A model generated the notes under the pieces. The model ran no database searches, was not told the DNA's origin, and saw nothing but the letters and a program-made list of their open reading frames with translations. A stretch of 42,602 nt of DNA from a virus. The stretch's first letter is position 1, and the number at the start of each line of letters is the position of its first letter. The stretch is taken from positions 1-42,602 of IMG/VR virus record IMGVR_UViG_3300045988_153375. One strand, given 5' to 3'. The translations under genes were made by a program, and so were the position numbers. Below, piece after piece: positions 4,328 to 41,308 of this stretch.

Positions 4328-4332
4328 CCGCC

Positions 4333-4376
4333 ACAACGAACCCCGTCCCATCGTTCGGTGGGGCGGGGTTCGTTGT
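4333..4376 (+). terminator. hairpin terminator
   Basis: 13-bp perfect stem: ACAACGAACCCCG (4333-4345) pairs with CGGGGTTCGTTGT (4364-4376). Confidence 0.6.
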
Positions 4377-4457
4377 ACAGAAAAGAGGAAAAACGAGTGA
4401 CACTACTAATGTTCATGCTCGCCATTTGCCTACTAGTGATCGTTTGGACGAATTTCA

Positions 4458-6428: not shown

Positions 6429-6695
6429 ATGGGCGTCTACCTAGTATGGGAATCGTCGCAGAAAGGCGACTACCGGGTCTACTCGAATCTGGAACAAGCC
6501 GCAATGCAAGCAGAAGAGCTCGACGGCACCGTCTATGAAATCATGCCGGCCGGCGACGCGAGACTATTCTTCATTGAAGATATTGCGAGCGGGGACATTG
6601 AGGTTCACCGTGACGTCAGGCTCGCCGCCATCGCCGCAATTCAGGAAGGAGAGAAATTTGAATTTGAGCCCGGCCGCCGCAACAGCGATCAGTAA
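6429..6695 (+). CDS. hypothetical protein (88 aa)
   Basis: ATG 6429 is preceded by TAGGGAAGAGAGAG (6404-6417). The longer 6237 start is unsupported. Confidence 0.55.
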   Translation: MGVYLVWESSQKGDYRVYSNLEQAAMQAEELDGTVYEIMPAGDARLFFIEDIASGDIEVHRDVRLAAIAAIQEGEKFEFEPGRRNSDQ

Positions 6696-7407: not shown

Positions 7408-7422
7408 GAGGTGAAACATACT

Positions 7423-8163
7423 ATGACTTTCGAGGACACTCTCGCCCGTCTCGGAATGACGGTCGTGAACCCGGAGCAGAATAACCATTTCAACATGCTC
7501 ATTCATGGTGTGAGTGGCGTCGGCAAAACATCGCTCGCAGCCACAGCATCACAGGTGGACGACATGTCACCCGTCCTGTACGTTGATTTCGAATCCGGCA
7601 CACTCCCAGTACGGGATTGGGGAAACCTGCAAAACCTTACTGTCGTGCATTGCGACAAGTGGGTTGATTGCGCCAATCTTTGCGACAATATTGCACGCAA
7701 TCTTGCAGAATTCCCCTACAAAACTGTCGTATTCGACACGCTGGACAAGTGCCAGGAACTCATCCTGACCCACTATGAGACTGTGTCGAATGACACGTGG
7801 ACGAAATGGCGGGCAGTCTACGATTCCCTGTTGAAGGCGATCAGCGTATTCCTGGACACCCCCGACATTTCATTCATTGCTATCACGCATTCCGCGCGCG
7901 AAAGCAGTGAGGTCACTGGGGAAACGTTCATCGCCCCGTCTTTTGAGGGGCAGAAATCCGGGCAGCGCATCCCCGCTCTGTTCAATTTTGTCGGCTACAT
8001 GGAATGGGCGAACATAGACAATGGGGATGGTGAGGAAATCACCGTGCCAGTCCTGTACACTCGCAAACCGAACGTTGTGACAAAGCAACAGACGCGCGGG
8101 TTTCCGCCGGCAATGGGGAATCCGAGCATGACCAAGATTCACAATTACATCACTAGCCACTAA
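7423..8163 (+). CDS. RecA-like AAA ATPase (Sak4/AAA_24-like recombination protein)
   Basis: Walker A GVSGVGKTS and Walker B VVFDTLD. TAGGAGG lies 11 nt upstream of ATG 7423. Confidence 0.75.
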   Translation: MTFEDTLARLGMTVVNPEQNNHFNMLIHGVSGVGKTSLAATASQVDDMSPVLYVDFESGTLPVRDWGNLQNLTVVHCDKWVDCANLCDNIARNLAEFPYKTVVFDTLDKCQELILTHYETVSNDTWTKWRAVYDSLLKAISVFLDTPDISFIAITHSARESSEVTGETFIAPSFEGQKSGQRIPALFNFVGYMEWANIDNGDGEEITVPVLYTRKPNVVTKQQTRGFPPAMGNPSMTKIHNYITSH

Positions 8164-13663: not shown

Positions 13664-13960
13664 ATGACCGCCACCACCAAGAACATCACCACCGACACCG
13701 ACATCGCCTATGCCGTCGGCACTGCCGCCAACGCTTGGGGTGACACGGACTACTGGGTGGACGAGACCGGCAACGTCATCGGCCTCAAGCGGAGCACCAC
13801 CGATGGTGGGCAGACGCTCGGACTTCACGTGTGCGATGACGTCGTCTCCTGGGGACTCTGGGAGTACGATGTCGACGGATTCACTGTCGTCCACGAGGGA
13901 CTCTCTGCTCTGACTGACGAGACCATCGCCTATCTGGCCGATTGGTGGCTGACGCACTGA
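13664..13960 (+). CDS. hypothetical protein (98 aa)
   Basis: ATG 13664 follows GAGAGGACAAG. The longer 13493 start is unsupported. Confidence 0.5.
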   Translation: MTATTKNITTDTDIAYAVGTAANAWGDTDYWVDETGNVIGLKRSTTDGGQTLGLHVCDDVVSWGLWEYDVDGFTVVHEGLSALTDETIAYLADWWLTH

Positions 13961-14051
13961 CATACACATAATGGTGGTGGCCCGTCACCTACGACGAGCC
14001 ACCACCACCCACCACCACCATTACATACACATATTTGAGAAGAGGATCATC

Positions 14052-14447
14052 ATGGCACGCCGTCGCACCGGATACGGATCATGCAAAACTACAGGAGGTG
14101 CCGTATTCACCAACCTGAAAGGCACCAAAATCCACTTCCCCGCAAAGGGGTACGAGAAAGGTGAGAACGAATTCCGGGGCATCCCCATCGAGCGGGTGAC
14201 TGCCGTCGCAATTCTCACCGGCGCCGACCTCGTACAGGCCATCCCCGTTCAGAAGCCCGCTCTCATCGGAAACGTCCGCAACGTGTTCATCCCCGAACAC
14301 GCCCACAATTTCTTCCTCGTGGTCTGCACCGAAAGAAACGTCTACAGAATTTTCGATATCAGCGAGGAGGAGCTCGGGAACGCGCACAATCTGATCAATG
14401 ATCTGCGTGGGCTTCTCGGCGATCAGATCGAGTGGATCAAATCATGA
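14052..14447 (+). CDS. hypothetical protein (131 aa)
   Basis: ATG 14052 follows GAGAAGAGGA. Confidence 0.5.
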   Translation: MARRRTGYGSCKTTGGAVFTNLKGTKIHFPAKGYEKGENEFRGIPIERVTAVAILTGADLVQAIPVQKPALIGNVRNVFIPEHAHNFFLVVCTERNVYRIFDISEEELGNAHNLINDLRGLLGDQIEWIKS

Positions 14448-23738: not shown

Positions 23739-26700
23739 TTATCGGTTCATTCGGTCATAGTCTACTATGGCCGATGTTGCCTCTACTTGCATGCGCCCGA
23801 CAAGATCGTTGTCCACGTCTCGAATTTCGAGCACGTCAGGGCCGAGCGCACGATTCTCCAGAAGGCTGATCAGCTTATCCATTTTCTCCCACTGGGCTGA
23901 CGTGAAAACGGGCTCCGGACGGCCAGTCTTATTCTCGATCGTTGAGAGGCCGGGCTGCAAGAATCCGCCGTTATCGTAGCGGAGATTACCGGCGGACGGC
24001 CCACCGTAGATCGGGACCTCACGCACCGGGATACCGAAGGTCGGGGCCTCGACCATCATCCCATTACCGGAGGCGATAGCAACGTGGTGGGCCGGGTAAC
24101 CCCAGAACAGGAGCGTACCGGGAACCATAGGATTACCGGGAGATGACATTGCCTGATATCCGGCCGCCGTGAGACGCGGTACGTGAATACCCATCGCATT
24201 GAGCGCCCAATAGACAAGACCAGAACAATCGAGGCCGCCTCCCGGGGAGACGCCGCCCCAAACATACGGTGTACCGATAGCACGACGCGCAGTGTTTACG
24301 AGGTCGCCCGCGGCGGCACCAATAGCACCGATTCCACCACCGAACCCGCTGACCACAGGCATGTGATCCTTGATCCAGTCACCGAGCGCGTCAATAGTCT
24401 TATCAACGCCAGCTTTTCCGGCGTCGAAGAATGGTTTCGCCCCGTCGCCGCCCCATGAATCGAGAAGTTTGTGAACCGGAGCCTTGATGACAGTTTCGAC
24501 GGCTCCGATCGGGTCGGAGAATATCGAGGATACCGCGTCGGCGGCACCGGTGATCCAATTAAGGGCAGCGGACGCACCCTTCTCTACCGTTGATTTGACA
24601 GGGTCCCAAATACCGCCGGGAGCGAATGCGGCATAGCCGGCGTCGCCGCCGGGAATACGGTCCCCGTGCGCGGCGGCGCGGTTCATGGCATTCACCATTG
24701 CCGGACCGCCGACGGCCTTCACCCATTCGGGTCGCATGATTGCTTCTCCGCCGGAAAGCGCGAGTCGGCCACCGCCGTCGGGTGACACGAAATGGTAAAT
24801 GTCGCGGCCGGGAGAGTATCCGGGCAGGACACCACCGGACGCGTACCCGCCAATCGTGGGCGCCTCAGGAAGGCGAAGATCAAGGGAGAGTTTCTCCATC
24901 ATTCCGTTTACGAGTTTCCTCAGCCCATTGTTGTAGACTGTGCCGATAACGAAGTTAACGGGTTTGGCGGCGGCTTCTTTGATTTTGTCCCACGCCGTCC
25001 TAACACCGTCTTTCATGGTGTTTGCGGCTGCTACGACCCTGTCCCAGGCGCTCGTAATTGCGGGAACAAGCGTGTTAGCAATCCAATCCTTAACGATTTG
25101 GATTTCGCCTTTCAGAATGTTCCACGCGGAGACGACCATGTTTTTCAGCCAGCTGGTCCACGAAACAACAGTATTCCAGGCAGCGCTGATCGTGGTGGCT
25201 GCACCTTGAATTACGGCGACACCCATGGTGACCGCGGCGATGATGGACGCGAATACGAACGCGATGATTCCGCCCAGAATTTTCGCTCCCGTAGAGATTA
25301 TCTCCCAGGCCACGCTAATAACGGGTGCGGCGTAGGTTTGAATCCAATTCACGACGGGCTGCATGACGGCCCAAATACCGTTCCATGTCGCCGATAGTGA
25401 GCCCCACATTATGGAGGCCGTATCTTTAATGGCGTTGAATGCGCCGACGACCCACGGCCATGCAATATTGTAGATCCAATCGACGACGGGCTGAATAGTG
25501 GCCCAAATACCGTTCCATGCCGCTGATATGGTTCCCCAAAGAGCGGAGGCAGTGTCTTTGATTGTGTTGAATGTGTCGACGACCCACGGCCAGGCCGTGT
25601 AGTAGATCCATTCGACCACTGGTTGCATGGCAGCCTGAATAGAGGTCCATGCGGCCTGAACAGTACCCCAAAGATTGGACGCCGCATCCTTGATCGTATT
25701 GAACGCGTCGACCACCCAAGGCCAAGCCGTATAGTAGATCCATTCAACTACCGGCTGCATAGCAGCTTGAATTGAGGCCCATGCACTCTGAATATCAGAC
25801 CACATGTTAGTGGCCGTATCCTTAATCGCGTTGAATGCGCCGACGACCCACGGCCAAACCGTATTGTAAATCCAATCTGCGACGGGCTGAATAGCGGTTT
25901 GAATGGCGGTCCATGCGATCTGAATATCGGCCCACATCATGGAAGCGGTGTCTTTAATCGCGTTGAACGCCCCGACCACCATAGGCCAAATGTCATTGTA
26001 GATTTGTGTAGCGACAGGCATGATTGCCGCCCAAATAGCGTCCCACGCCCACTGAATCGTAGACCAGAGCGCGCTCACGCCCCAGCTGATAGCATCCCAT
26101 GCTGTAGTGAGATACAAGGCGGCAACGTTGACAATCCAATCGACGACAGGCCGGATTATGTCGCTGATCCCTTGCCAGGCTGCGACCATCCCGTTCCAGA
26201 CGATCATTGCGCCCGCAGAAATACCGTCCCATGCCGCCTGAAGATTGGGCCAGGCAGTATTCACGATCCAGTCGACAACGGCTTGAATGACGGGCTGTAT
26301 TCCTTGCCATGCGCCGACGATGCCGTTCCATACCCATTGGGCGCCGGCGACGATTCCGTCCCATGCCGCCTGGAGTGCGGGCCATGCGGTGCCGACAATC
26401 CAGTCAATGACGGCTTGAATGACGGGCTGTATTCCTTGCCAGACGGATACCATGACGCCCCACATCCACTGGGCGCCGGCCACAATTCCATCCCAAGCGA
26501 CTTGCATGAGAGGCCAAACGTTAGCGGCGAACCAATCGGCCACTGCCCCGGCTGCCGTTTTGATTGCTTCCCAACATGAAATGACGACGTTGCGGAATGT
26601 TTCGGAGTTCTGCCATGCCACAATGATTGCCGCAACCAATGCTGCGATAGCGATCACAACGAGGCCGATTGGGTTGGCGTCCATTGCCGCGTTGAATGCC

Positions 26701-32564: not shown

Positions 32565-33047
32565 TTAGTCGCCGGCGAAAACGTTCCGAGCGAATTCTGC
32601 AAGATTGCCGCTGTCATTGTCGGGCGTGGCTCCGGCCTGTGGTACCACGGGGGCGACGGACGGCTTAGCGTCGTGCAGTGCCTTGGCGATTGCGGCGGCA
32701 TGAGCGTTGATTTCATCCTCGGTTGTTCCTCGGATCAAATCTGCGCTGATACCGTGTTCTGCGGCAGCGTTGGCGGACCATTCACGGACTTTAGCGGCGG
32801 TTTCGAAGTCTGCCACTTTGGCCTTTAGGGCTTCGATTGTGGCGTCTTTGTCGCCGATTGCCTTGGCGAGCTCGTCTCGTTCGTTGGCGGCGCGCCGATT
32901 TTCCTTGGCGCGATTCTCCCACTTCCGGGACTCACTCTTCCAGTCGATTTCAGACTTACTAGCAGCGTTGTCCCCGCTCTTGGGGGCGTTGTCGTCGTTA
33001 GTGGCACTGTTATCGGCCGGCGTGTCGCTGGCGGCGTTATCGCTCAT
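32565..33047 (-). CDS. scaffolding protein
   Basis: 160 aa, acidic N-terminus, long charged helix/coiled-coil, located upstream of the capsid gene. Confidence 0.7.
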   Translation of the reverse strand: MSDNAASDTPADNSATNDDNAPKSGDNAASKSEIDWKSESRKWENRAKENRRAANERDELAKAIGDKDATIEALKAKVADFETAAKVREWSANAAAEHGISADLIRGTTEDEINAHAAAIAKALHDAKPSVAPVVPQAGATPDNDSGNLAEFARNVFAGD

Positions 33048-33154
33048 TGGGCGTTTCCTATATTTTGACCGTGCGGTTATTGTGATGTTTCAGGCAACTA
33101 TTTTGGGCTTTGCAGCCTTCCTTCAGTGGCCTTTGTTTATGCATTGTAGCACAA

Positions 33155-33880
33155 TCATTCAATTGGTCGGGTGCGCCATTGTGTGAGCTCCTCTTGGTGC
33201 GTGTCTATCCACGATGAGACGAGTTCACGGTGACGTTTGCGGCCTTTTTCAGTTTTATGCCGGGCCGCGAGCGCGTACGCTTTCGCCGGCACTTCCCGAG
33301 CTGTCGGGTCCCATGCGGGGACTGCGACACATTTGCAATTGTCGTGCGCCCCGAATGACGCGGTGCCCTGGCTGCGGTAGTAGCATTCGTTCATTGTGAG
33401 CATGACGCAGAAATTGCAGGCTTGCGGGTTACGTGTCCGTCTTTCCCAGCCCATTGCTTCCGGGTCGGCCCATGTCATGTCTGCGATTTGCGCTCTGGCG
33501 CCGTCGCTGACGTATCGAATGAGTGCCCCGGTCAAATAGGATAGGGCAATGTCAGGGTTTCCGGCGTATAGTGCGCCGGCGCTGAACCGTACACTGTCGT
33601 CGATTTCGCCTTGTGGGGTGAGTGGTGTTTGTACGGTGGGGGCGTCGCCTGGAATGTCTTGGTCTAGGCGCATGTCGCGGTACCATTCGTCGGCGATTGC
33701 GGCGGCCGCACCGCCGTATTGGTCTACGAGGGCGGGCATGATTTCGAGCAGAAGGTCACGGGCTTGTTCGGGGCGTTGTCTAGCGGCGTGGGCCCAGAGT
33801 GTGTGTAGATCGTTTTGGGCGAGTGCGGTGAGTGAGTCTACGGCTCGCCCGTATGCCCCGATTTCTGCGGTTGACAGCAT
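33155..33880 (-). CDS. MuF/SPP1 gp7-like head morphogenesis protein
   Basis: Position after the portal. C-terminal CNFC...HDNCKC motif. Confidence 0.65.
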   Translation of the reverse strand: MLSTAEIGAYGRAVDSLTALAQNDLHTLWAHAARQRPEQARDLLLEIMPALVDQYGGAAAAIADEWYRDMRLDQDIPGDAPTVQTPLTPQGEIDDSVRFSAGALYAGNPDIALSYLTGALIRYVSDGARAQIADMTWADPEAMGWERRTRNPQACNFCVMLTMNECYYRSQGTASFGAHDNCKCVAVPAWDPTAREVPAKAYALAARHKTEKGRKRHRELVSSWIDTHQEELTQWRTRPIE

Positions 33881-33888
33881 AATAGGTG

Positions 33889-35505
33889 TTAGTTTATTGG
33901 TGTTTTGGTGCCGCCGGGCAGTTTAATGTTGCGCTTGACCCTGTTCCTTGTATTGGGCGCGTTATTAAGGTTCAGGTTGCTGCCACTGCCGTTACTGCTA
34001 CTGTTGTTGGCGGCGTTATTGGCGTTGTTATCGTCGTCAGCGTTAGTCGCGTCGGCGTTTTCGATATTCTCGCCATTCTCATCCACCGTGCCTCCGTTGT
34101 TCGTGGCGGCGAGAGCACGATCAAGCAATGATACCGCATTCTTTTTGCGATTCTCAGCGTTAATGTCTGCGAGATCGTCCTCGGTGAGTCCGGCACGCCG
34201 CATGAGAGTCTGCGACTCCTGCAACGACGGAAACGCAGACACCATTTTGACCGCGAAATCGGCGGCAGACGACGGCGAGGAATAGCGGGCGGGGGTCCAC
34301 TTCACCGAGGTCTTCCACGACTCTTGCGGCGGCTCGTCGAGTTTGTCACGGACCATAATAATATTCTGCAGCGTACGCCGCAGCGGTGCAGAGAAGATTC
34401 GCCACTGATACTCGGCCTCGTCCGCGAGCGCCGCCTCGGACGCCTGCATCGCCTCAGCCGAGGACGGGTTATCCGCGAATATCCCGATAGCGGACTGAGG
34501 TAGGTTTGTGGCCGCGCACAAATTCTGCGCCAGTTGACGGTACATTTCCAAGTGGGGGCTCATGGTCATTTGTGAGAATTGCCCAACCGACGGGATGTCC
34601 CCGTTTTCGTTCGGCTCCAGCACTTGGACGCGGGCCATGATTGCGGACCACCTGTCTTGGCCGGCGAAATCTGCTCTTTCCGCGCCGAGCACGTAGCGTT
34701 GCGGTGAGGAGAAGAATTCTGCGGAGGTTTCTGCGCGGACCATTGTCCTCACCGCCGCGTCCGTGAGATATCTTACTTCGCGGGTGATTCGTGAGTGACC
34801 CAACGGCCGGTTCAGTTGGGGGTCGTAGCAGAGTGCTTCAACGAAAATGCGGTGGGGGGTGTCTCCGAGTTTCTCAGCCTTCCATCCACCGCCGTTTTCT
34901 CGGGCGTCGATTCGCCAAATAGCGGTGGGGGTGTGCATGATGGCGCCTGCCGGCTGCCCGTATTTGTCGGTCTGATCGATTGTGAGGGCGGCCTCGATTA
35001 TGCGACGCCTGGTGTCCCAAAGGGCGGCGGACCATTCCGCGTCACGGGCCTGCACGACGACAGGCGGCTCACCAATAGTCTCATCCCCCCGCGTCACTGT
35101 GAGCAGTGAGAAAGAATGCTTGTACGCTGAAGTGATCGCCTGCGCGAGATCAAGATCGTAATTGTTAGCGGATAGTATTTCGTTTGCTTCGAAGGCGTCG
35201 GGCGCCCCGTTCAGGGAGTAGCCTTCGAATACGTGCCGTCGGGCGAGCATGGTGACGACTTTCTGAGGCCACCCCAACGCGGCTTTGGTGCGCGTCATTT
35301 GCGGCGGAATACTGATACCCAGGTCTTGGAAAGCGCGGTGGCCGTCATAGTAGACGGAAAGCAGCTTGTTTTTGTTCGAGTGCTGCTGCCATTTCTGCCA
35401 CAGTTGCAGAAATGTTACCCGATCGTCGTCGGGTAGTCCGGAAATGCGTGTGGGTGCCGGCGTAGCATTAACGAGTCGTCCGTCGTCAGGATAAATTTCA
35501 GTCAT
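33889..35505 (-). CDS. portal protein (SPP1 gp6-like)
   Basis: 538 aa, directly downstream of TerL, with an Asn-rich low-complexity C-terminal tail. Confidence 0.9.
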   Translation of the reverse strand: MTEIYPDDGRLVNATPAPTRISGLPDDDRVTFLQLWQKWQQHSNKNKLLSVYYDGHRAFQDLGISIPPQMTRTKAALGWPQKVVTMLARRHVFEGYSLNGAPDAFEANEILSANNYDLDLAQAITSAYKHSFSLLTVTRGDETIGEPPVVVQARDAEWSAALWDTRRRIIEAALTIDQTDKYGQPAGAIMHTPTAIWRIDARENGGGWKAEKLGDTPHRIFVEALCYDPQLNRPLGHSRITREVRYLTDAAVRTMVRAETSAEFFSSPQRYVLGAERADFAGQDRWSAIMARVQVLEPNENGDIPSVGQFSQMTMSPHLEMYRQLAQNLCAATNLPQSAIGIFADNPSSAEAMQASEAALADEAEYQWRIFSAPLRRTLQNIIMVRDKLDEPPQESWKTSVKWTPARYSSPSSAADFAVKMVSAFPSLQESQTLMRRAGLTEDDLADINAENRKKNAVSLLDRALAATNNGGTVDENGENIENADATNADDDNNANNAANNSSSNGSGSNLNLNNAPNTRNRVKRNIKLPGGTKTPIN

Positions 35506-36995
35506 AGGAACAATACTCCGCCGCCACGTCCATTATTACTATTGGCGTTTTCGATTTTATCATAAGGCTTATAGCGCGGTCTTCTTTTTGTTGTGCGTGC
35601 GGCCCACATTGCGAGCGTGCATGCTTCTAGGCCGGCTACGGTGGCGCCCGGCGGTGCTTGTAGGGCCCATCCTCCGGATGTTCCGATTGGGCGTGGCGTC
35701 GCAGAAGCGGCCTCGGTCCTCAGTTGCATGTCGTCCAGGTGTGTGATTGTGTTTTCGCGTAGTGAGGCGTCTAGCATACTGTAGGCGTCTATGATTTGCG
35801 TGATCGTGGGTGTGATGATGACTTGGGGGCGTACTCCGATGGCGCGTAGTCTTTCGATTGTGTCTCCGGCACCGTATTTTCCGTCTACGATGATTTGTGC
35901 CCATCTGTCTTTTGTGTCCGCGATGTAGTCGATGATCCATTGCGTGCCTTCGCTCATGCGGCGGACGCCTTGGTGCGTGCAGAGTTCGACGTGTGTGGGC
36001 GTGTTTTGCTTGTGTCCGGCTCGGGCTAGGGCACAGGTTGACCCGTCGGGGGCGAATCGGATTGCGGCGCACCAGCGCATACCGGTCGGCGTGTTTTCTG
36101 GCCGTATTGTGGCAGTGTTCCAGGCGACAGGGTCTATTGCGAGCCTGTCGTTGGCGCGGTCCCATATTCCGAGGCCTTCACGGCGGAATGATTCTTCTCC
36201 GAGCTGCCTACGCATTCTTAGAATGGCGGATTCGGGTGTGCGGCGCGGGTATGATGGATTTGCTTTTTCCCATTGTTTCCGGTCGTCGCTGTTGGCGTCG
36301 TAGTCGGCGGCCAACTCCAAATAGAGGCCGTCTTTTATTTCGCCTTGCAGGGCGAGGTTGCGGAATTCGCTGAATGCTTCGGATGGGTCTTTCGGTTTTG
36401 GTGGTGTTCCGATTTTGATGATGAGCGGGTCCGGGGCGGTGTTTGTGGCGGGGATCATGTCGTCTAGTGCGGCGGCGCCTAGGATTTGGGCTTCGTCGAA
36501 GAGGATCATGTCTACGCCGTGGAATCCGCGTCCGAATCCTCCTTCGCGGGCGCCGAACAGGATTCGTGATCCGTTATTGAAGAGGATGGCCTGTTGTCCG
36601 TTTGCTTGCCGTATTTTGTTCACGTACGGGGCGATGTTGGGGATTTGTGCCATTCCTTTCATGTCGTTGAATGTTTCGTCGGCGGTGCGTGTGCGGTGTG
36701 CGGTCCAGAGTACGAAGTAGTTGGGGTGGAGGGTGGCGAGTGCGAATGTGAGGCCGCCGATTGTGTATGTTTTGCCGACCTGTCTGGGGATGCTGGCTTG
36801 GATTCCGTCGATGCTGGCGGCGTAGTGGCCGTCGTTTCGTTTGGCGAGGATTGCTTTGAGCCAGTCTTGCTGCCATGTGTCGAGGGGGTATTGCATTTCT
36901 TGGAGGCGGCGTTGGACTGGCGGCCAGGCGGTGTGTGTGATGTTTTCTGGGAGGGTGAGGTGGGCGGCGATTTCGCTTAGGTGTTTTTCGCTCAT
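35502..36995 (-). CDS. terL: terminase large subunit
   Basis: Walker A IPRQVGKTYT, Walker B MILFDEAQ, and a C-terminal nuclease-type domain. Confidence 0.92.
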   Translation of the reverse strand: MSEKHLSEIAAHLTLPENITHTAWPPVQRRLQEMQYPLDTWQQDWLKAILAKRNDGHYAASIDGIQASIPRQVGKTYTIGGLTFALATLHPNYFVLWTAHRTRTADETFNDMKGMAQIPNIAPYVNKIRQANGQQAILFNNGSRILFGAREGGFGRGFHGVDMILFDEAQILGAAALDDMIPATNTAPDPLIIKIGTPPKPKDPSEAFSEFRNLALQGEIKDGLYLELAADYDANSDDRKQWEKANPSYPRRTPESAILRMRRQLGEESFRREGLGIWDRANDRLAIDPVAWNTATIRPENTPTGMRWCAAIRFAPDGSTCALARAGHKQNTPTHVELCTHQGVRRMSEGTQWIIDYIADTKDRWAQIIVDGKYGAGDTIERLRAIGVRPQVIITPTITQIIDAYSMLDASLRENTITHLDDMQLRTEAASATPRPIGTSGGWALQAPPGATVAGLEACTLAMWAARTTKRRPRYKPYDKIENANSNNGRGGGVLFL

Positions 36996-36996
36996 T

Positions 36997-37278
36997 TTAG
37001 ATGCCGTCCCAGGTTTGTGTTTCGTTTGGAATGTCGGTGGTGTGTGTGGTGGTGTTTTCGTTTTGTGTGGTGGCTAGTTGGTCTGTGATTTGTATGAGTT
37101 GTGCGGTGAGTTTTGTGAGTGCTGTGTCGCCTGTTCTGGGGTCGTCTATGACGGTGGCGATTTTGTGTGCTAAGGCTTGGCGGATGAGTGTTGGGTTGCC
37201 GGTGTTTGTGGCGTCTGTGATGGGGGCGGGACTGTTGGGTTCGTATACGGTGATTGTGGTGTTTGTGTGGGTTGTCAT
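36997..37278 (-). CDS. hypothetical protein (93 aa), positional candidate for the small terminase
   Basis: It ends 1 nt before the terL ATG. There is no recognisable motif. The T/N-rich ends reflect the local A/C-rich strand composition. Confidence 0.45.
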   Translation of the reverse strand: MTTHTNTTITVYEPNSPAPITDATNTGNPTLIRQALAHKIATVIDDPRTGDTALTKLTAQLIQITDQLATTQNENTTTHTTDIPNETQTWDGI

Positions 37279-37285
37279 GTCTTCT

Positions 37286-37291
37286 ATTATA
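37286..37291 (-). promoter_or_regulatory. candidate -10 TATAAT placed 7 nt from ATG 37278 (leaderless late/packaging operon start)
   Basis: The minus strand reads TATAAT-AGAAGAC-ATG. Confidence 0.4.
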
Positions 37292-37320
37292 TGTGGTGGT
37301 GTGAGTCACGTCTGGTGGGG

Positions 37321-37447
37321 TTTTCCACAGGGTTATCCACAGGGTGGAGGGTTTTCCACAGGGTTTTCCACAGGTTGGGGAGTTTTCCACATGATGGCGG
37401 TCACATTGTGATGTGGGTTACTGGAGTTATCCACAGGGTTTTCCACA
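37321..37447 (+). promoter_or_regulatory. cluster of seven DnaA-box consensus 9-mers TT(A/T)TCCACA, all in one orientation
   Basis: Boxes at 37321-29, 37333-41, 37352-60, 37364-72, 37383-91, 37427-35 and 37439-47. Two are TTATCCACA and five are TTTTCCACA. Most are followed by GG(G). Confidence 0.7.
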
Positions 37448-37559
37448 AGCAGGGAGGGATGGGCAGACCTTCGGGGTGTTCGCGGCCGGATGGGGGAGGG
37501 GGGGTGGCCCCCATCACATAATTTGTGTGGTGTGCGTCTCGTTTACGTGTGTTCCCTGT

Positions 37560-37980
37560 GTTGTTTGTGATGTGGGTCCCATGCCTAAGGGATCCCTTAC
37601 TGCGTTGGGGCCCCCTTTTTGTTCGTCTCGTTTTGTTGCCATGGTTTTTTTGAACGCCATTGTTGTTTCACGCTTTGCATGTTTTTGCGTGTTTTTGTAA
37701 CATTTCTTTTGTTTTTATGCATTTTTGTGTGTTTGTGCGTTTGTGCGTTGTGCTTGCCTTGTGGCATGCGTTGGCACCATGCATGGTGCATGGTGTTGGT
37801 ATGCATGTCATGCATCACATCATCATGTGTTCACTATCATGTTCATGATGTTCATCATTGATGATCGTTGATCATCATGATGTTCGTCGTTCATTGTTCA
37901 TTGATTGTTGATTGAACGTTGATCATCGATCATCGTTGATCATTGTTGTTCGTTGGTTGTGTGAACGTGAACAGTGTGAG
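37560..37980. other. AT-rich, palindrome-dense low-complexity tract (candidate DNA unwinding element / protein-binding array)
   Basis: Contains TAAGGGATCCCTTA (37586-99), T-runs, ATGCAT/CCATGCATGG palindromes, several TGATCA sites, and CGTTGATCAT three times (37866, 37917, 37934). No credible ORF. Confidence 0.5.
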
Positions 37981-39062
37981 GTGAGACAGTGGATGGTGTC
38001 CATCCTCGTCGGCGTGTTCTGTTATTGAATGGCGGTGGGGTGTGCTGCTGTCCTGCCGCAGTGCAGTGGTGTGCCCCGCGCCTTACTCATCCCACTGCAG
38101 TGCTGCTGAGTACTGCGATCGTGTCGTGTATTGTTCCTTGCCGGGTGTGTGGTGCAGTGTGGGTGAGTGTGCGTCTGTGGTGTTTGTGTGGTGGGGTATC
38201 CTCCGATGACCCTCCCCCATTCGTGGTGGTGGGTGGGGCCATCATGGTTGGTGGGGTGGCATGACGAGGCGGGGGTGGCATGACTGGGGAAGGGCGGTAG
38301 TGTCGCGGGTATCCCCTTCCGTGTATGGGTGTCCCCCGTCTGTTCGCGTGGTGGTCCCGTTGAAGGGCGGGAGTGGCGTGTGTTGTGATGTCCCGTCTTC
38401 GGATCGGGTTCTCCCCTTTCACATTGTCCCTGTCCTCTCGCATTGTCTCGCTTCCCTGTTGTGTTGTGTGTTGTGGGTGGGGAAGTGTGGTGGCGTGTGG
38501 TGTCCGTTACACATTGCGTTGTGGTGTATGTCTCTGTGTGCGAGTGGTGGGGTTGTGTGGAGTGTGGAATGTCGGTGGTGGTAGAACTGTGTCCCTCTCT
38601 TCTCTCTCTTCTCCCCTCCCTCATCTTTGTGTTTGCTGTCACGGTATTGTTGGTTTAGGGGGGCGTCTTTGTGTCAGGGTTGTGTCATTGTGGAATAGCG
38701 GTGATGGTTTGTGTTGGGTAGAAGGGTGTGTGCGGTGTCTACTGTCTGCTGTGTACTGTGTACTGTTCTCCCTTCTGTGTTGTGGTGTATGTGTGGTGGT
38801 CATGTCGCATTGTGTTGTGGGTTGTGGAATGGCGGTGCGTGAGGGGTGTGGTCTCGTCGTTTGTCTTCTTTTGTTCTCTTCCTTCTCTTCTTCTTCCTTT
38901 GTGCTGGTGTTCGGGGTAGTGCGCGCGCAGCTCTGCGAGCACGCACGTTATCCCCGAACACCATTGTGTCCCCTCGTTGCTTGTTCGTCCTCTTCTCTCT
39001 TCTTCTCCCCGCCTTTCTTCACCGTCCGTCTTTCATTGTGTTGGAATGGCGGGGGGGGTGAT
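37981..39062. other. about 1.1-kb extremely G/T-skewed (plus strand) apparently non-coding region
   Basis: The plus strand is almost free of A. Long ORFs on both strands have aberrant composition (C/V/G/L-rich or T/H/P-rich). There are no RBS-plus-start combinations. Confidence 0.6.
38905..38963. repeat. conserved hairpin element, copy A
   Basis: The 34-nt core TAGTGCGCGCGCAGCTCTGCGAGCACGCACGTTA is enclosed by the 12-bp stem TGGTGTTCGGGG / CCCCGAACACCA. Confidence 0.75.
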
Positions 39063-39407
39063 TCACCATGTGTCGGTGTGTTGTGTTGGCATGACGGCGA
39101 CGGGTAGTCTGTCTCGTTCGTCTTCGTTTTTCTGGTAGTGGCGCGCTCTTCCTTTGCCGTGCTTGCCGTTGCCTCGTCTGCTGTTGCATTTGGCGCATAA
39201 CACTCTGCCGTTGTCTGGGTGATTGGTTCCGCCTAGTGATGCTGGGATTATGTGGTCTGCTTCGGCGCTGTTTGGTTTGCGTTGTCCGTTGTTGTTGTAT
39301 TGGAGTTTTACTCCGCATGCTGGGCAGTGTGTGATGCCCATTGCTTGTGCTCGTGCGAGTACTTGTTTTCTGAATTGTTTGTGTTCTCGTGTGCTTGTTC
39401 TGCTCAC
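39063..39407 (-). CDS. HNH endonuclease
   Basis: CPACG...AEADHIIPASLGGTNHPDNGRVLCAKCNSRRGN (HNH core with paired Cys). GTG start follows AAGAAGAGAA. Confidence 0.9.
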   Translation of the reverse strand: MSRTSTREHKQFRKQVLARAQAMGITHCPACGVKLQYNNNGQRKPNSAEADHIIPASLGGTNHPDNGRVLCAKCNSRRGNGKHGKGRARHYQKNEDERDRLPVAVMPTQHTDTW

Positions 39408-39438
39408 CGCTGTTCTCTTCTTTCTTGTGTTTGTGTTA

Positions 39439-39481
39439 GGTGGTGGCGCGTCGCAGCGTCAGCGAGACGAGCGCCTCCACC
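39439..39481. other. imperfect hairpin 32 nt upstream of the HNH start
   Basis: GGTGG-T-GGCGC-G-TCG ... CGA-GCGCC-T-CCACC, giving 13 bp in three blocks. Confidence 0.35.
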
Positions 39482-39571
39482 GTCTAACACTACTCTCTCT
39501 TCTTTCTTCTCTTCTTTTTTTCGCCTTTCTTATCCTCTTCTCCTCTCTTCTTTCTGTTCGTCTTGTGGGAT

Positions 39572-39633
39572 TGGTGTGTGTTGTGTAGTGCGCGCGCAGC
39601 CCTGCGAGCACGCACGTAACACAACACACACCA
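39572..39633. repeat. conserved hairpin element, copy B
   Basis: The core TAGTGCGCGCGCAGCCCTGCGAGCACGCACGTAA matches copy A at 32 of 34 positions. It is enclosed by a different 14-bp stem, TGGTGTGTGTTGTG / CACAACACACACCA. Confidence 0.75.
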
Positions 39634-39757
39634 TTGTGTTTTGGTTGTCTACTTGAACGCAGTGCGTGTCTCTTTACACACGACACGATGATTGTTGCCC
39701 CCACCACACACTGTTCACTATTAATGATCGCCATGTTCACCATTGAACACTAATTAC

Positions 39758-39766
39758 GTTATAACA
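39758..39766 (-). promoter_or_regulatory. candidate extended -10 promoter TGtTATAAC reading leftward toward the HNH gene
   Basis: The minus strand reads TGTGTTATAAC. The first operator-like palindrome overlaps the -35 position. Confidence 0.3.
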
Positions 39767-39779
39767 CATGTTCCCTAAT

Positions 39780-39835
39780 TAGACACTGTCTAGTTCTGTT
39801 AGACAGTGTCTAATTCTAGTACTCTTTTAAGAGTA
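39780..39835. promoter_or_regulatory. three operator-like palindromes
   Basis: TAGACACTGTCTA (39780-92), TTAGACAGTGTCTAA (39799-813) and TACTCTT-TT-AAGAGTA (39820-35), in an AT-rich gap. Confidence 0.6.
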
Positions 39836-39876
39836 TAGGTTGGGCCCAACACAGTGGCGAGCTCTTCGAAAACACC

Positions 39877-39931
39877 CTGCGGCGCTGACGCTCGCTTGCG
39901 TCGCTAGGGCTCCTCAGCGGCTGCGCCGCAG
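39877..39931 (-). terminator. candidate terminator (9-bp outer stem with an inner hairpin)
   Basis: CTGCGGCGC / GCGCCGCAG encloses GACGC/GCGTC. On the minus strand it is followed by GGTGTTTTCG. Confidence 0.35.
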
Positions 39932-40153
39932 ATCGTCTTCGACGATTCGTCTACTCGAGTGTAGCATATAGACTAAAGTCCCAACAACAAACACTGCCAA
40001 CAAAACAAACGCAACAGGGACCATTCGTTGCAACCATGCGAAACACCTGACACAAAACCTTGCTGAAAGGGCAGAAAGTGTGACGACACACACCAACGTT
40101 GTAGTAACACAAACGGGTGTTTTCACCCTAGAACGCCAGTTACTAGCAAACAA
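39914..40153 (-). CDS. doubtful small membrane-protein ORF
   Basis: TTG start without an RBS, and T-ending codons unlike other genes. The hydrophobic segment VPVAFVLLAVFVVGTLVYML could equally be a composition artefact. Confidence 0.25.
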   Translation of the reverse strand: MFASNWRSRVKTPVCVTTTLVCVVTLSALSARFCVRCFAWLQRMVPVAFVLLAVFVVGTLVYMLHSSRRIVEDDLRRSR

Positions 40154-40166
40154 CCCACTTGCGTAG

Positions 40167-40211
40167 AAAGTAAACGGAAGATGAACAAAGTAAACGGGAG
40201 GTTAACGGAAC
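40167..40211. repeat. direct repeats AAAGTAAACGG(A/G)AG x2 plus a GTTAACGGAAC half-copy
   Basis: Copies at 40167-80 and 40187-200 (20-bp phase), with a related copy at 40201-11. Confidence 0.6.
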
Positions 40212-40283
40212 TGTGAGAGATTGGCATGAGCGCCGGCACCACACACCCATCACATACCGCCCTTCCACCATCCGAGACGCACT

Positions 40284-40317
40284 GAGGCCCCACCCTCATC
40301 GTGGAGAGTGGGGCCTC
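40284..40317 (-). terminator. hairpin terminator after gene 40339-40683
   Basis: 14-bp stem GAGGCCCCACCCTC / GAGAGTGGGGCCTC with one mismatch. Confidence 0.55.
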
Positions 40318-40338
40318 GTCGTCCTCAGACCAGTCAGG

Positions 40339-41228: not shown

Positions 41229-41258
41229 TTGACAGGGCCCCCCCCGCCCTTCTATAGT
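41229..41258 (+). promoter_or_regulatory. near-consensus sigma-70/SigA-type early promoter
   Basis: TTGACA (41229-34), an 18-nt spacer, then TATAGT (41253-58). It lies about 50 nt upstream of ATG 41309. Confidence 0.65.
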
Positions 41259-41308
41259 GGACGCACCGCCGAAGGTCGGTGTACGAAGAAAGAGAGGACG
41301 GAACACGA

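What the first reader, a model, noticed from the sequence alone, without database searches (positions are those of the whole stretch)
37981..39062. More than 1 kb of extreme G/T (keto) strand skew with no credible genes
Between the AT-rich tract and the HNH gene the plus strand consists almost entirely of G and T with some C, and A is rare. I judged this by eye and did not compute exact composition. Stop codons are therefore depleted on both strands. The ORF track shows long overlapping ORFs with absurd compositions, for example 38373-39107 (C/V/G/L-rich) and 38022-38642 (T/H/P-rich). None has an RBS or resembles a protein family. The same skew continues beyond HNH (39408-39700). Including the origin-like tract, about 2.4 kb (roughly 5-6 percent of a 42.5-kb phage genome) is devoted to this sequence, right between HNH and the terminase genes. 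Embedded in it are polypyrimidine tracts at about 38590-38626, 38860-38900, 38975-39020 and 39490-39565. On the minus strand these read as long AGGAAGAG-type purine runs that resemble this phage's own RBS consensus. Possible roles are packaging (cos/terminase-binding) DNA, a C-rich G-poor Rho-loading leader on the minus-strand RNA, H-DNA or G-rich structure formation, or a non-coding RNA.
Basis: seen in the sequence. Interest (0 to 1): 0.7.

Follow-up and report, generated by a model that had tools for sequence, protein, structure and literature searches.

The report
Strand-segregated non-coding arm beside cos
The last 1.6 kb of this phage's DNA before its sticky end carries no genes and sits inside a 4-kb zone where one DNA strand has almost lost the bases A and C, even at the silent positions of three essential genes; this has not been described for a double-stranded DNA phage, and its cause is still open.

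Summary
On the + strand, 37981-39062 is A 8.7, C 21.7, G 34.9, T 34.7 % (G+T 69.6 %). Outside 35.6-39.6 kb no 1-kb window exceeds 62 %.

- **Non-coding.** Thirteen distinct relatives keep the region, but with 319 pairwise indels, 80 % of them not multiples of three.
- **Position.** Contig ends of about 25 relatives put the cohesive ends at 37466-37475. The finding is therefore the right-terminal arm of a cos genome.
- **The skew is regional.** Four-fold sites of the flanking real genes (HNH, TerS, TerL) are 84-100 % A/C on the sense (-) strand. This holds across about 60 genomes and fades in the portal gene.
- **Extent.** The zone starts just downstream of a conserved promoter/operator-like region. 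It spans cos and seven iterons that match the DnaA-box consensus.
- **Exceptions.** Only three conserved hairpins, a repeated 11-mer and hypervariable purine tracts break the rule.
- **Best reading (0.35).** A lambda-like late leader that crosses cos and is kept free of U and G, and so free of structure and signals.
- **Main rival (0.30).** mtDNA-like deamination of the + strand while it is single-stranded during replication.

The feature is lineage-specific.

The parts
35613..39609 (.). Strand-segregated zone: the + strand is G/T-rich and the gene-sense (-) strand is A/C-rich. It spans TerL, TerS, cos, the spacer and HNH.
   Evidence: G+T is at least 0.64 in 200-nt windows almost continuously. 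The cumulative T-A skew rises steeply from about 33000 to 39960. Third codon positions are 0.84-0.96 A+C in HNH, TerS and the first 200 codons of TerL, and decay to 0.68 at the TerL end.
37981..39062 (-). The finding itself: a non-coding spacer made of conserved islands and hypervariable, indel-rich stretches.
   Evidence: Composition is. There are no Pfam hits for its ORFs. 80 % of 319 indels are not multiples of three. The conservation profile is and the alignments.
37466..37475 (-). Probable 10-nt 3' cohesive overhang, CCCGAAGGTC on the minus strand. The genome's left end starts at 37465 and runs downwards. The right end stops at about 37476.
   Evidence: At least eight related contigs begin exactly at TGCCCATCC, and one has an Illumina adapter fused there. 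Right-end contigs stop at ...GCGAACA(C), one followed by a Nextera adapter.
37321..37447 (+). Seven iterons that match the DnaA-box consensus TTWTNCACA (two are TTATCCACA), arranged in pairs 12 nt apart, 19-145 nt inside the left end. They are either DnaA boxes or terminase (cosB-like) binding sites.
   Evidence: These are all 7 matches in the window and all lie on one strand; 0 of 100 shuffles reach 7. Copy number varies among relatives. This is the commonest repeated word in the spacer set.
37500..37980 (.). AT-rich tract (GC about 0.40-0.45) forming the extreme right end of the genome. 37500-37830 is 88-98 % conserved. 37841-37949 is a degenerate ATGATCAAC-type repeat.
   Evidence: One-nucleotide indels among relatives show that it is non-coding.
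36997..37278 (-). Small terminase gene (93 aa). It is the most skewed gene: no G or T at 50 four-fold sites, and 53 % of residues are K/N/T/Q/H/P.
   Evidence: Matches phrog_1459, terminase small subunit, at E 5.6e-5.
37286..37291 (-). TATAAT hexamer 7 nt upstream of the TerS ATG. It is invariant in 14 sequences and is a candidate promoter for a leaderless TerS mRNA.
   Evidence: Read from the sequence. Its function is inferred.
35502..36995 (-). Large terminase gene. Its sense-strand four-fold sites are A 0.35, C 0.49, G 0.11, T 0.04.
39063..39407 (-). HNH endonuclease gene. Its sense-strand four-fold sites are A 0.58, C 0.36, G 0.06, T 0.00.
   Evidence: Pfam HNH_5 and HNH; composition.
38905..38963 (-). 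Hairpin A, just downstream of HNH. It is about 97 % conserved and is a paralogue of hairpin B.
   Evidence: RNA minimum free energy -39.5 kcal/mol, z -4.9. The core is found only in this phage family, twice per genome.
39572..39633 (-). Hairpin B, upstream of HNH. It has the same inner stem as A, and its outer stem covaries among relatives. It marks the upstream edge of the skewed zone.
   Evidence: -42.3 kcal/mol, z -4.8. Five of 22 pairs show compensatory changes, none shows a one-sided change, and a U.G pair on the sense strand is invariant.
39433..39490 (-). Hairpin C, 30-45 nt upstream of the HNH start. It is identical in all 25 sequences aligned.
   Evidence: -31 kcal/mol, z -4.4; alignment.
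38592..38622 (-). Purine tract 1, one of five. The others are at 38874-38900, 38988-39010, 39493-39522 and 39533-39555. Sequence and length are hypervariable in relatives, but the tracts are always A/G.
38025..39052 (-). Five copies of the motif CACCGCCATTCCA (core CCGCCATTC) on the minus strand, at 38025, 38565, 38691, 38825 and 39042.
   Evidence: Five of the 16 window matches with at most 1 mismatch fall within this 1 kb, all on one strand. CCGCCATTC occurs 3.4 times per spacer in 14 genomes. The positions are conserved.
38639..38716 (-). Conserved island (84-88 % column conservation) that holds one copy of the motif.
38183..38258 (-). Conserved C-run island (84-88 %), preceded by two CATGCCACCC repeats.
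39777..39860 (-). Conserved control region: the promoter-like TCGCCA-17-TATACT (39860..39832), then two or three copies of the palindrome TAGACAnTGTCTA. The skew begins about 130-200 nt downstream of it.
   Evidence: Its function is inferred.
39975..40285 (+). Mirror patch: conserved non-coding DNA on the other side of the control region. Its + strand has the same composition (A 0.37, C 0.28, G 0.21, T 0.145) and carries the motif variant CCGCCCTTCCA on the + strand. It ends at a covarying hairpin (40285-40318).

Best explanation
**What it is (well supported).** The finding is the non-coding right-terminal arm of a cos-type actinophage genome. It lies between the HNH endonuclease gene and the cohesive ends. 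It is the gene-free core of a 4-kb zone (35.6-39.6 kb) in which the gene-sense strand is purged of T and G.

**How it most likely works (inferred).** As in phage lambda, a promoter near the right end (about 39.83 kb, with operator-like palindromes) drives transcription through two hairpins, HNH, a third hairpin and the spacer. It then crosses the joined cos site into TerS and TerL. That transcript is continuous only once the genome is circular or concatemeric.

The first 4 kb or so of this RNA is kept almost free of U and poor in G. As a result it:
- cannot fold,
- has almost no start or stop codons,
- has no U-tracts and no -10-like words.

Only the three conserved hairpins, the purine (SD-like) tracts and the repeated 11-mer act as signals. 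On this reading the spacer is a structure-free, signal-free conduit between the late control region and the packaging genes.

What selects for this composition is not known. Candidates are escape from U-dependent endoribonucleases, avoidance of pausing or termination, and controlled Rho loading.
For: **Shown by tool results.**
- Non-coding status.
- Genome ends at 37465/37476.
- The skew follows the sense strand of all three genes in the zone. At four-fold sites it is near-absolute: A+C is 0.94 in HNH, 1.00 in TerS and 0.84 in TerL, against 0.42-0.63 in most later genes (0.30 in one).
- It persists in about 60 genomes although these sites are highly polymorphic (pi about 0.25; population mean A 0.40, C 0.48, G 0.085, T 0.037). 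Common polymorphisms are A<->C, and G/T alleles are rare.
- The zone begins within about 200 nt of a conserved promoter/operator-like region, at hairpin B, and fades 4 kb downstream.
- The non-coding patch on the far side of that control region has the same composition on the opposite strand.
- The skew does not change across the iteron/AT-rich module in its middle.
- T is avoided more strictly than G, and G-containing purine tracts persist.
- Minus-strand RNA is nearly unfoldable: -5 to -16 kcal/mol per 150 nt in the spacer and TerS, against a genome mean of -43.8 +/- 11.3. Plus-strand RNA folds normally.
- Hairpins A and B covary and carry an invariant sense-strand U.G pair, which would be a C.A mismatch on the other strand.

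**From established knowledge.** Lambda late transcription starts at pR' near the right end and crosses cos.
Against: - There are no transcript data. The promoter-like site is a weak consensus match: one site was found where 1.7 are expected by chance.
- A perfectly conserved TATAAT directly upstream of TerS suggests the terminase genes may have their own promoter.
- Hairpin A could be a terminator without a U-tail, which would end the HNH transcript before the spacer.
- No known mechanism requires 4 kb of U/G-poor mRNA.
- A force strong enough to change protein composition (TerS is 53 % K/N/T/Q/H/P against 24 % in homologues) is more typical of mutation pressure than of selection.
- Loss of exactly the two deaminable bases, C and A, from one strand is the classic signature of single-stranded DNA damage.
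- Plus-strand genes at 1.5-5.8 kb have G/T-rich sense strands.
- The fade is not monotonic. The portal gene dips and the next gene rebounds.
- The polymorphism tests could not separate selection from biased mutation.
Confidence: 0.35

Rival explanations
1. Mutational by-product of replication, like the heavy/light strand asymmetry of animal mitochondrial DNA. The + strand of 35.6-39.6 kb spends unusually long as single-stranded DNA. This could be as displaced strand or lagging-strand template next to an origin formed by the DnaA-box-like iterons and the AT-rich tract, at forks stalled head-on against late transcription, or at a fork arrested on returning to a unidirectional origin. Its C and A are deaminated to T and G. 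Hairpins, purine tracts and motifs survive because they are functional. The hairpins could serve as lagging-strand priming signals, like mitochondrial OL or plasmid ssi sites.
For: - The + strand has lost precisely C and A at neutral sites: 0-11 % C and 0-4 % A, against about 30 % and 22 % elsewhere.
- The effect scales with freedom from constraint. It is greatest at four-fold sites, weaker at codon positions 1+2, and shifts amino-acid usage.
- It ignores gene boundaries and coding status.
- The zone is roughly centred on seven DnaA-box-consensus iterons plus an adjacent AT-rich tract.
- The sister cluster lacks the iterons, the spacer and the TerL skew together.
- Another lineage (L184) has a strong A/C-rich sense zone that ends exactly at cos.
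- Focal four-fold bases are independent of the outgroup base, so this is a long-standing equilibrium.
Against: - The skew keeps its sign across the putative origin, whereas replication skews normally flip there.
- Explaining both sides needs two separate events (a delayed first priming and an arrested returning fork) or a slow unidirectional fork.
- The sharp edge coincides with a promoter-like region and a hairpin, and nothing independently marks that spot as a terminus.
- A is more depleted than C on the + strand, the reverse of spontaneous deamination rates and of mammalian mtDNA (from memory).
- The hypervariable pyrimidine tracts on the + strand keep about 40 % C.
- The fade is not monotonic.
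- The mirror patch on the other strand is unexplained.
- There is no genome-wide + strand G/T excess at four-fold sites.
- The iterons occupy the classical cosB position and may be terminase sites rather than DnaA boxes.
Confidence: 0.3
2. Selection at the DNA level for single strands that cannot fold. The phage encodes a 5'-3' exonuclease and a Sak4-type annealase. Resection inwards from the cos ends would expose about 2 kb of the + strand at the left end and of the - strand at the right end. A two-letter composition on each strand keeps both tails free of hairpins, which would favour annealing or strand invasion (recombination-dependent replication, concatemer formation).
For: - Exonuclease and Sak4-like genes lie at 6535-8163.
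- The zone extends about 2 kb on either side of the physical ends.
- Neither strand can form Watson-Crick hairpins outside the three conserved ones.
Against: - Nothing in this model requires the same sign of skew on both sides.
- The upstream edge is set by the control region, not by distance from the end.
- The three strongest hairpins in the region lie inside the supposed structure-free tail.
- Relatives with similar recombination genes were not examined.
Confidence: 0.1
3. Sacrificial buffer at the end of the DNA that enters the cell first. If packaging runs left to right as in lambda, the right end is injected first. The 1.6 kb of dispensable DNA, with co-oriented copies of CACCGCCATTCCA on the 3'-ending strand, would absorb or attenuate a host RecBCD/AddAB/AdnAB-type nuclease (a Chi-like function) before it reaches HNH and the early genes.
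For: - The spacer is the outermost 0.5-1.6 kb of the right end.
- It tolerates large indels.
- The motif copies are all on the strand that ends 3' at that terminus, which is the geometry Chi recognition needs (Chi geometry from established knowledge).
Against: - The host is unknown, so the motif could not be tested for over-representation or strand bias in a host genome (one search found no prophage).
- A variant of the motif also occurs on the other strand, at 40257.
- The model does not explain the skew inside TerS, TerL and HNH.
- No Chi sequence is known for actinobacterial AdnAB (from memory).
Confidence: 0.07
4. Extended packaging signal: the region is cos accessory DNA (cosQ- or cosB-like) bound by terminase.
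For: - It lies next to cos.
- It holds a repeated motif that shares the word TTCCACA with the iterons beside TerS.
Against: - The finding starts 500 nt from the cut site.
- The sister cluster, Rothia phage Spartoi and P. freudenreichii phage G4 all have HNH within about 60-160 nt of the end.
- TTCCACA is not the conserved core of the motif, which is CCGCCATTC.
- Large parts of the region are hypervariable.
Confidence: 0.05

Closest known systems
Heavy/light strand asymmetry of animal mitochondrial DNA (deamination gradient of the displaced H strand; stem-loop OL)
   Same: One strand is G/T-rich. The sense strand of the genes is almost purely A/C at four-fold sites. Amino-acid usage is shifted. 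Conserved hairpins sit at the edge of the zone.
   Different: Here the asymmetry is confined to 4 kb of a 42.6-kb double-stranded phage genome. T is the rarest sense-strand base, whereas in mammalian mtDNA it is G (from memory). The gradient is not monotonic. No strand-displacement replication is known for such phages.
Lambda late operon (pR'-qut-tR', transcript crossing cos into Nu1/A) and the cosQ-cosN-cosB layout
   Same: A promoter-like region with hairpins lies near the right end. The genes on both sides of cos have the same orientation. Iterons sit between the cut site and the small terminase gene, where cosB R sites lie.
   Different: Lambda has no 1.6-kb gene-free spacer and no compositional purge. 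No Q-like antiterminator was identified here. The overhang here is a 10-nt 3' end, and an HNH partner gene is present, as in HNH-dependent cos phages.
HNH-terminase cos phages of Actinobacteria (Rothia phage Spartoi, P. freudenreichii phages, related IMG/VR clusters)
   Same: The gene order is the same: HNH at the extreme right end, TerS-TerL-portal at the left. TerL is 46-62 % identical.
   Different: In those phages HNH lies about 60-160 nt from the end, with no spacer, no iterons and no TerL skew.
DnaA-box/AT-rich plasmid and chromosomal origins (oriC; RK2 or pSC101 oriV)
   Same: There is a cluster of co-oriented boxes matching TTWTNCACA, including two TTATCCACA, beside a 480-bp AT-rich tract that is followed by GC-rich DNA.
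   Different: The boxes and the AT-rich tract lie on opposite sides of the cohesive ends, so they are adjacent only after circularisation. There is no skew reversal. The boxes have conserved flanks and paired 12-nt spacing, more like terminase or initiator iterons. Binding was not tested.
Rho-utilisation (rut) leaders such as lambda tR1
   Same: Untranslated, C-rich, G-poor, unstructured RNA on the sense strand.
   Different: It is more than 1 kb long rather than about 100 nt. The same composition continues through translated genes. Rho dependence was not tested.

Membership tests
Protein-coding gene | Reading frame conserved among relatives (indels in multiples of three) | tested here: not met
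   254 of 319 pairwise indels in 37981-39062 are not multiples of three.
Protein-coding gene | Similarity of the ORF products to a protein family | tested here: not met
   No Pfam hit at E<=0.1 for the five ORFs inside the finding. One flanking ORF, 39459-39743, has a sub-threshold hit (E 0.015, 16.3 bits against a cut-off of 23).
Known RNA family (Rfam 15) or tRNA | Match at the family's gathering score | tested here: not met
   The best hits reach 32 bits against a threshold of 67 and 23 bits against 39. No tRNA or tmRNA was found.
cos packaging site | Contains the terminase cut site or cohesive ends | tested here: not met
   The ends map to 37465/37476, outside the finding.
cos packaging site | Required in related phages with the same terminase and HNH | tested here: not met
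   The sister cluster and cultured relatives have about 60-160 nt between HNH and the end or TerS.
DnaA-dependent replication origin (for the adjacent module, 37321-37980) | Cluster of DnaA boxes | tested here: met
   There are seven matches to TTWTNCACA, all at 37321-37447; 0 of 100 shuffles reach 7.
DnaA-dependent replication origin (for the adjacent module, 37321-37980) | Adjacent AT-rich unwinding region | tested here: met
   GC is 0.395-0.485 at 37500-37999, against 0.55 for the genome.
DnaA-dependent replication origin (for the adjacent module, 37321-37980) | Reversal of strand skew at the origin | tested here: not met
   The skew has the same sign on both sides.
DnaA-dependent replication origin (for the adjacent module, 37321-37980) | DnaA binding and initiation | not testable with these tools
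   This needs EMSA or ChIP and replication mapping. The host is unknown.
Single-strand deamination asymmetry (mtDNA type) | Loss of C and A from one strand at neutral sites | tested here: met
   Sense-strand four-fold G is 0-0.11 and T is 0-0.04 in HNH, TerS and TerL.
Single-strand deamination asymmetry (mtDNA type) | Smooth gradient with distance from an origin | tested here: inconclusive
   The skew decays along TerL, but the portal gene dips and the next gene rebounds.
Single-strand deamination asymmetry (mtDNA type) | Elevated per-site C->T and A->G mutation rate on that strand | tested here: inconclusive
   The polymorphism spectra are compatible with both selection and biased mutation.
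Rho-dependent terminator / rut leader | Untranslated, unstructured RNA with C>G over at least 80 nt | tested here: met
   Sense-strand C is 0.29-0.33 against G 0.19-0.23 in 13 relatives. The minimum free energy is -5 to -16 kcal/mol per 150 nt at 38551-38925.
Rho-dependent terminator / rut leader | Rho-dependent transcript ends | not testable with these tools
   This needs transcript mapping with and without Rho inhibition.
G-quadruplex / H-DNA element | Four G-runs with short loops; conserved mirror-repeat purine tract | tested here: not met
   There is no G4 motif with loops of 7 nt or less, and only one with loops of 12 nt or less. The purine tracts are not conserved in sequence.

The most novel reading that the evidence does not exclude
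A double-stranded DNA phage keeps a 4-kb segment around its cohesive ends in a two-letter-per-strand code. The pressure is strong enough to rewrite the silent sites and part of the protein sequence of its packaging enzymes. Two causes remain possible.

- **A split origin.** The DnaA boxes sit at the left end and the unwinding tract at the right end, so the origin is assembled only on circularisation. It fires a strand-displacement, mitochondrion-like replication that leaves one strand single-stranded, and the conserved hairpins act as second-strand origins.
- **An unusual RNA requirement.** The late transcript that crosses cos must be free of U and G.

Either would be a mechanism not described for tailed phages.
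Probability: 0.3. Interest if true: 0.8.

Novelty: new variant of a known kind. Interest (0 to 1): 0.62.

Why it matters
**Why it is surprising.** Local strand asymmetry this extreme (0-6 % G+T at the silent sites of two genes, and half of a protein's residues drawn from A/C-only codons) is known from organelle genomes. It is not known from a defined 4-kb window of a tailed phage.

**If the cause is mutational.** It would be a footprint of how and where these phages expose single-stranded DNA. It would allow replication origins and their direction to be read from sequence alone in uncultured phages.

**If the cause is selective.** It would point to an unrecognised requirement on the RNA or DNA that links the late control region to the packaging genes across cos. 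A candidate cause is an RNase, Rho or nuclease pressure from oral Actinobacteria.

**Practical consequences.**
- The zone produces long spurious ORFs on both strands, which gene callers will annotate.
- Mapping the ends, iterons and hairpins gives concrete targets for engineering or deleting this region.

**Testability.** About 60 natural variants are already available, so the question can be tested directly.

Tried and rejected
- **Protein-coding reading.** Rejected on the indel pattern and the lack of family hits.
- **Known RNA or tRNA.** Nothing found.
- **Similarity to sequenced phages.** No match in near or distant mode, nor for the L184 lineage.
- **Prophage or host identification.** The TerL scan of 185,579 species genomes found only 41 %-identical Leucobacter prophages. 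A putative late-region protein gave only weak hits to Rothia and Streptococcus phages. The host remains unknown; an oral actinobacterium is a weak guess.
- **G-quadruplex.** Not supported.
- **GATC clustering as an origin mark.** GATC is under-represented overall, with only a mild local cluster.
- **TTCCACA as a word shared by iterons and motif.** Not significant on its own: 10 found against 5.7 expected. It is also not the conserved core of the motif.
- **'Transitions only' conversion test against outgroup TerL genes.** Uninformative because the sites are saturated.
- **Flux and singleton tests for selection against mutation bias.** On reflection these are invalid or inconclusive. Reversions at minority alleles are invisible, and the sites are near saturation.
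- **Recent replacement of the portal gene as the reason for its weaker skew.** No close donor was found; identity is 58 % or less.
- **A large non-coding A/C-rich spacer in lineage L184.** Rejected on reading the sequence. The region is coding in another frame, although its genes are A/C-rich at silent sites.
- **Literature searches** for a described equivalent. None was found. One search failed on a term that was too short.
Full report
**1. The observation**

On the + strand, 37981-39062 is A 8.7 %, C 21.7 %, G 34.9 % and T 34.7 %, so G+T is 69.6 %. The whole window is 20.8 % A. No 1-kb window outside about 35.5-39.5 kb exceeds 62 % G+T. In 200-nt windows, G+T of 64 % or more runs almost without a break from 35613 to 39609. 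A is indeed rare, but with 22 % C the strand is not 'almost entirely G and T'.

The pyrimidine tracts are real. Read on the minus strand, they account for five of the seven purine runs of 18 nt or more in the window. The stretch beyond HNH (39408-39700) is pyrimidine-rich rather than keto-rich, with G+T of 58.7 %.

**2. Context and genome ends**

The minus strand carries HNH (39407..39063; Pfam HNH). It also carries a 93-aa small terminase (37278..36997; phrog_1459), TerL (36995..35502) and the portal gene. TerL is less than 50 % identical to any cultured phage; the nearest are Arthrobacter, Rothia and P. freudenreichii phages. There is no nucleotide match in the phage database.

IMG/VR holds about 60 close relatives, with TerL 95-99 % identical. 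Their contig ends pile up at one place.
- At least eight contigs begin exactly at TGCCCATCC (window 37465, minus strand). One has an Illumina adapter fused to that base.
- Right-end contigs stop at ...GCGAACA(C), about 37476. One is followed by a Nextera adapter.

The 10 nt missing from both kinds of end, CCCGAAGGTC, is most simply a 3' cohesive overhang trimmed during library preparation (inference). The window is therefore a circular permutation of a cos genome, and the finding is the outer 0.5-1.6 kb of its right arm.

In cultured relatives, HNH lies about 60-160 nt from the right end. In the sister cluster (TerL 61 % identical), about 130 nt separate HNH from TerS. The 1.6-kb spacer is therefore lineage-specific and is not needed for packaging as such.

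**3. The region is non-coding but maintained**

Thirteen distinct relatives span the interval. The HNH-to-TerS distance is 1482-1825 nt, and composition is constant on the sense strand: A 0.35-0.38, C 0.29-0.33, G 0.19-0.23, T 0.105-0.13.

Within the finding, identity in ungapped columns is 73 %. There are 319 pairwise indels against the window, and 80 % are not multiples of three. The long ORFs have no Pfam hit, and nothing reaches an Rfam threshold.

Conservation is a mosaic.
- Conserved islands lie at 38891-38969, 38639-38716 and 38183-38258.
- The terminal AT-rich tract plus cos (37354-37825) is conserved at 88-99 %.
- Hypervariable, indel-rich stretches lie at 38717-38890 and 38410-38638.

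**4. Elements that break the compositional rule**

(a) *Three strong hairpins.* These are A (38905-38963), C (39433-39490) and B (39572-39633). Their RNA folding energies are -31 to -42 kcal/mol, with z scores of -4.4 to -4.9.
- A and B share an inner stem and flank HNH.
- The shared core occurs only in this phage family in IMG/VR, twice per genome.
- The outer stem differs between A and B and covaries among relatives. Five of 22 pairs show compensatory changes and none shows a one-sided change.
- An invariant U.G pair exists only on the sense strand.
- C is identical in all 25 sequences aligned.

(b) *Purine tracts on the sense strand.* They are hypervariable in sequence and length, but they are always A/G and contain GGAG/GAGG words.

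(c) *The motif CACCGCCATTCCA.* Five copies lie on the minus strand within 1 kb, about 3.4 per genome in relatives, at conserved positions.

**5. The key result: the skew is regional and overrides coding**

At four-fold degenerate sites, the sense-strand composition is as follows.

| Gene | A | C | G | T |
|---|---|---|---|---|
| HNH | 0.58 | 0.36 | 0.06 | 0.00 |
| TerS | 0.40 | 0.60 | 0 | 0 |
| TerL | 0.35 | 0.49 | 0.11 | 0.04 |
| Portal | 0.16 | 0.39 | 0.31 | 0.15 |

- **Profile along the genes.** Third-position A+C is 0.84-0.96 from HNH to codon 200 of TerL and falls to 0.68 at the TerL end. It dips to about 0.5 in the portal gene, rebounds to 0.78-0.86 in the next gene, and then disappears.
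- **Effect on proteins.** 53 % of TerS residues are K/N/T/Q/H/P, against 24 % in homologues.
- **Across the population.** In about 60 genomes the mean at these sites is A 0.40, C 0.48, G 0.085, T 0.037, even though pi is about 0.25. Common polymorphisms are A<->C, and G/T alleles are rare.
- **Equilibrium.** Compared with outgroup TerL genes, the focal base is A (about 0.4) or C (about 0.45) whatever the outgroup base. The state is a long-standing equilibrium.
- **Other lineages.** The sister cluster and Rothia phage Spartoi lack the skew. A more distant lineage, L184, has A/C-rich silent sites in the 3 kb before cos and returns to normal exactly at TerS.

**6. Surroundings that bear on mechanism**

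- **Iterons.** All seven window matches to the DnaA-box consensus TTWTNCACA lie at 37321-37447 on one strand; 0 of 100 shuffles reach seven. They sit 19-145 nt inside the left end, in pairs 12 nt apart, and their copy number varies among relatives. This is also the classical cosB position, so they may be terminase sites.
- **AT-rich tract.** The conserved 480-bp tract lies on the other side of the ends. Iterons and tract become adjacent only after circularisation.
- **TerS promoter candidate.** An invariant TATAAT lies 7 nt upstream of the TerS ATG.
- **Control region.** Upstream of the zone is a conserved region: TCGCCA-17-TATACT at 39860..39832, followed by TAGACAnTGTCTA palindromes.
- **Mirror patch.** Beyond the control region, a conserved non-coding patch (39975-40285) has the same composition on the opposite strand (A 0.37, C 0.28, G 0.21, T 0.145). 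It carries a motif variant on that strand.
- **Foldability.** Minus-strand RNA is almost unfoldable: -5 to -16 kcal/mol per 150 nt in the spacer and TerS, against a genome mean of -43.8 +/- 11.3. Plus-strand RNA folds normally.
- **Other genes.** The phage encodes a primase/helicase, an exonuclease and a Sak4-like annealase.
- **Lifestyle.** No prophage copies exist in 185,579 species genomes, so the phage is probably lytic. The host is unknown.

**7. Explanations**

Two readings fit most of the facts.

*Reading R, confidence 0.35.* A lambda-like late transcript starts at the control region and crosses cos into the terminase genes. Its first 4 kb or so is kept free of U and poor in G. It therefore has no secondary structure, no start or stop codons, no U-tracts and no -10-like words, apart from the designated hairpins, purine tracts and motifs.

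In favour:
- The skew follows the sense strand and starts at the control region.
- It is mirrored on the other strand across that region.
- It is unchanged across the iteron/AT-rich module.
- T is avoided more strictly than G.
- Purine tracts that contain G persist.
- The hairpins carry a pair that exists only on the sense strand.

Against:
- There are no transcript data.
- TerS may have its own promoter.
- Hairpin A may terminate the HNH transcript.
- No known process needs such an RNA.

*Reading D, confidence 0.30.* The + strand is single-stranded for unusually long during replication and loses C and A by deamination, as in mitochondrial DNA.

In favour:
- Exactly the deaminable bases are lost.
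- The effect scales with freedom from constraint.
- It ignores gene boundaries.
- The zone is centred on an origin-like module.
- The sister cluster lacks the spacer, the iterons and the skew together.

Against:
- There is no sign reversal at the putative origin.
- The two sides need separate explanations.
- The sharp edge lies at a promoter-like region.
- A is more depleted than C.
- The fade is not monotonic.
- The mirror patch is unexplained.

My polymorphism tests could not separate R from D.

Lesser rivals are structure-free resection tails for the phage's exonuclease and annealase (0.10), a nuclease buffer with Chi-like motifs at the first-injected end (0.07), and extended packaging DNA (0.05).

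**8. Comparison and novelty**

The composition resembles mtDNA strand asymmetry. The layout resembles the lambda late operon and cos. The iterons and AT-rich tract resemble DnaA-dependent origins. The RNA resembles a rut leader. In each case at least one defining feature is unmet or untested (see the membership table).

I found no description of a comparable local purge in a tailed phage. The literature search was limited to open-access text. I rate the finding a new variant of a known kind (compositional strand asymmetry), with a real chance that the mechanism behind it is new.

Noticed in passing
window 37321-37447 and 37500-37980: Seven co-oriented iterons that match the DnaA-box consensus lie at the extreme left end of the genome. 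A conserved 480-bp AT-rich tract lies at the extreme right end. The two are adjacent only after the cohesive ends join, so if this is an origin it would be a 'split' one. Iteron copy number varies from about 5 to 11 among relatives.
   Followed up: partly
window 37286-37291 (minus strand): An invariant TATAAT lies 7 nt upstream of the TerS ATG, with no Shine-Dalgarno word between them. This suggests a leaderless TerS mRNA with its own promoter.
   Followed up: partly
window 39777-39860: A highly conserved control region: a promoter-like TCGCCA-17-TATACT, a TACTCTTAAAAGAGTA palindrome, and two or three TAGACAnTGTCTA palindromes whose copy number differs among relatives.
   Followed up: partly
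window 40167-40206 (+ strand): Two tandem 20-nt repeats, AAAGTAAACGGAAGaTGAAC and AAAGTAAACGGGAGGTTAAC, are conserved in relatives. They lie inside an A/C-rich non-coding patch that ends at a covarying hairpin (40285-40318). This may be a small RNA or a set of protein-binding sites.
   Followed up: no
window 41231-41259 (+ strand): TTGACA-17-TATAGT, a near-consensus sigma-70-type promoter, faces the plus-strand early genes. Two small minus-strand genes (about 41082-40815 and 40684-40339) diverge from it.
   Followed up: no
window 12042-12565 and 13941-14309: Apart from a short patch at 24186-24386 and the mirror patch, these are the only other places where the + strand is markedly A/C-rich (G+T of 0.38 or less in 200-nt windows). 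The first lies inside a 502-aa minus-strand ORF of unknown function.
   Followed up: no
L184 (IMGVR_UViG_2534682016_000001) 2400-5600: In a distinct lineage (TerL 47 % identical), the genes in the 3 kb before cos have A/C-rich silent sites (A+C 0.76-0.87). The composition switches to normal exactly at the HNH-TerS gap. L168 and L186 show upstream A+C of 0.6-0.7 as well.
   Followed up: partly
L050 start, L069 end, L093 end, L032 start, L056 start: Several IMG/VR contigs carry sequencing-adapter remnants or unrelated or inverted sequence fused at the phage's physical ends. These are assembly artefacts, but they mark the termini.
   Followed up: yes
window 6535-8163: An exonuclease and a Sak4-like single-strand annealing protein lie next to primase/helicase genes (1541-5852). 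No DNA polymerase was seen among the ten largest early ORFs scanned.
   Followed up: no
window 37841-37949: A degenerate repeat of the ATGATCAAC/GATGATC type, with five GATC sites in 80 nt. Its pattern is conserved among relatives but its sequence is not.
   Followed up: no
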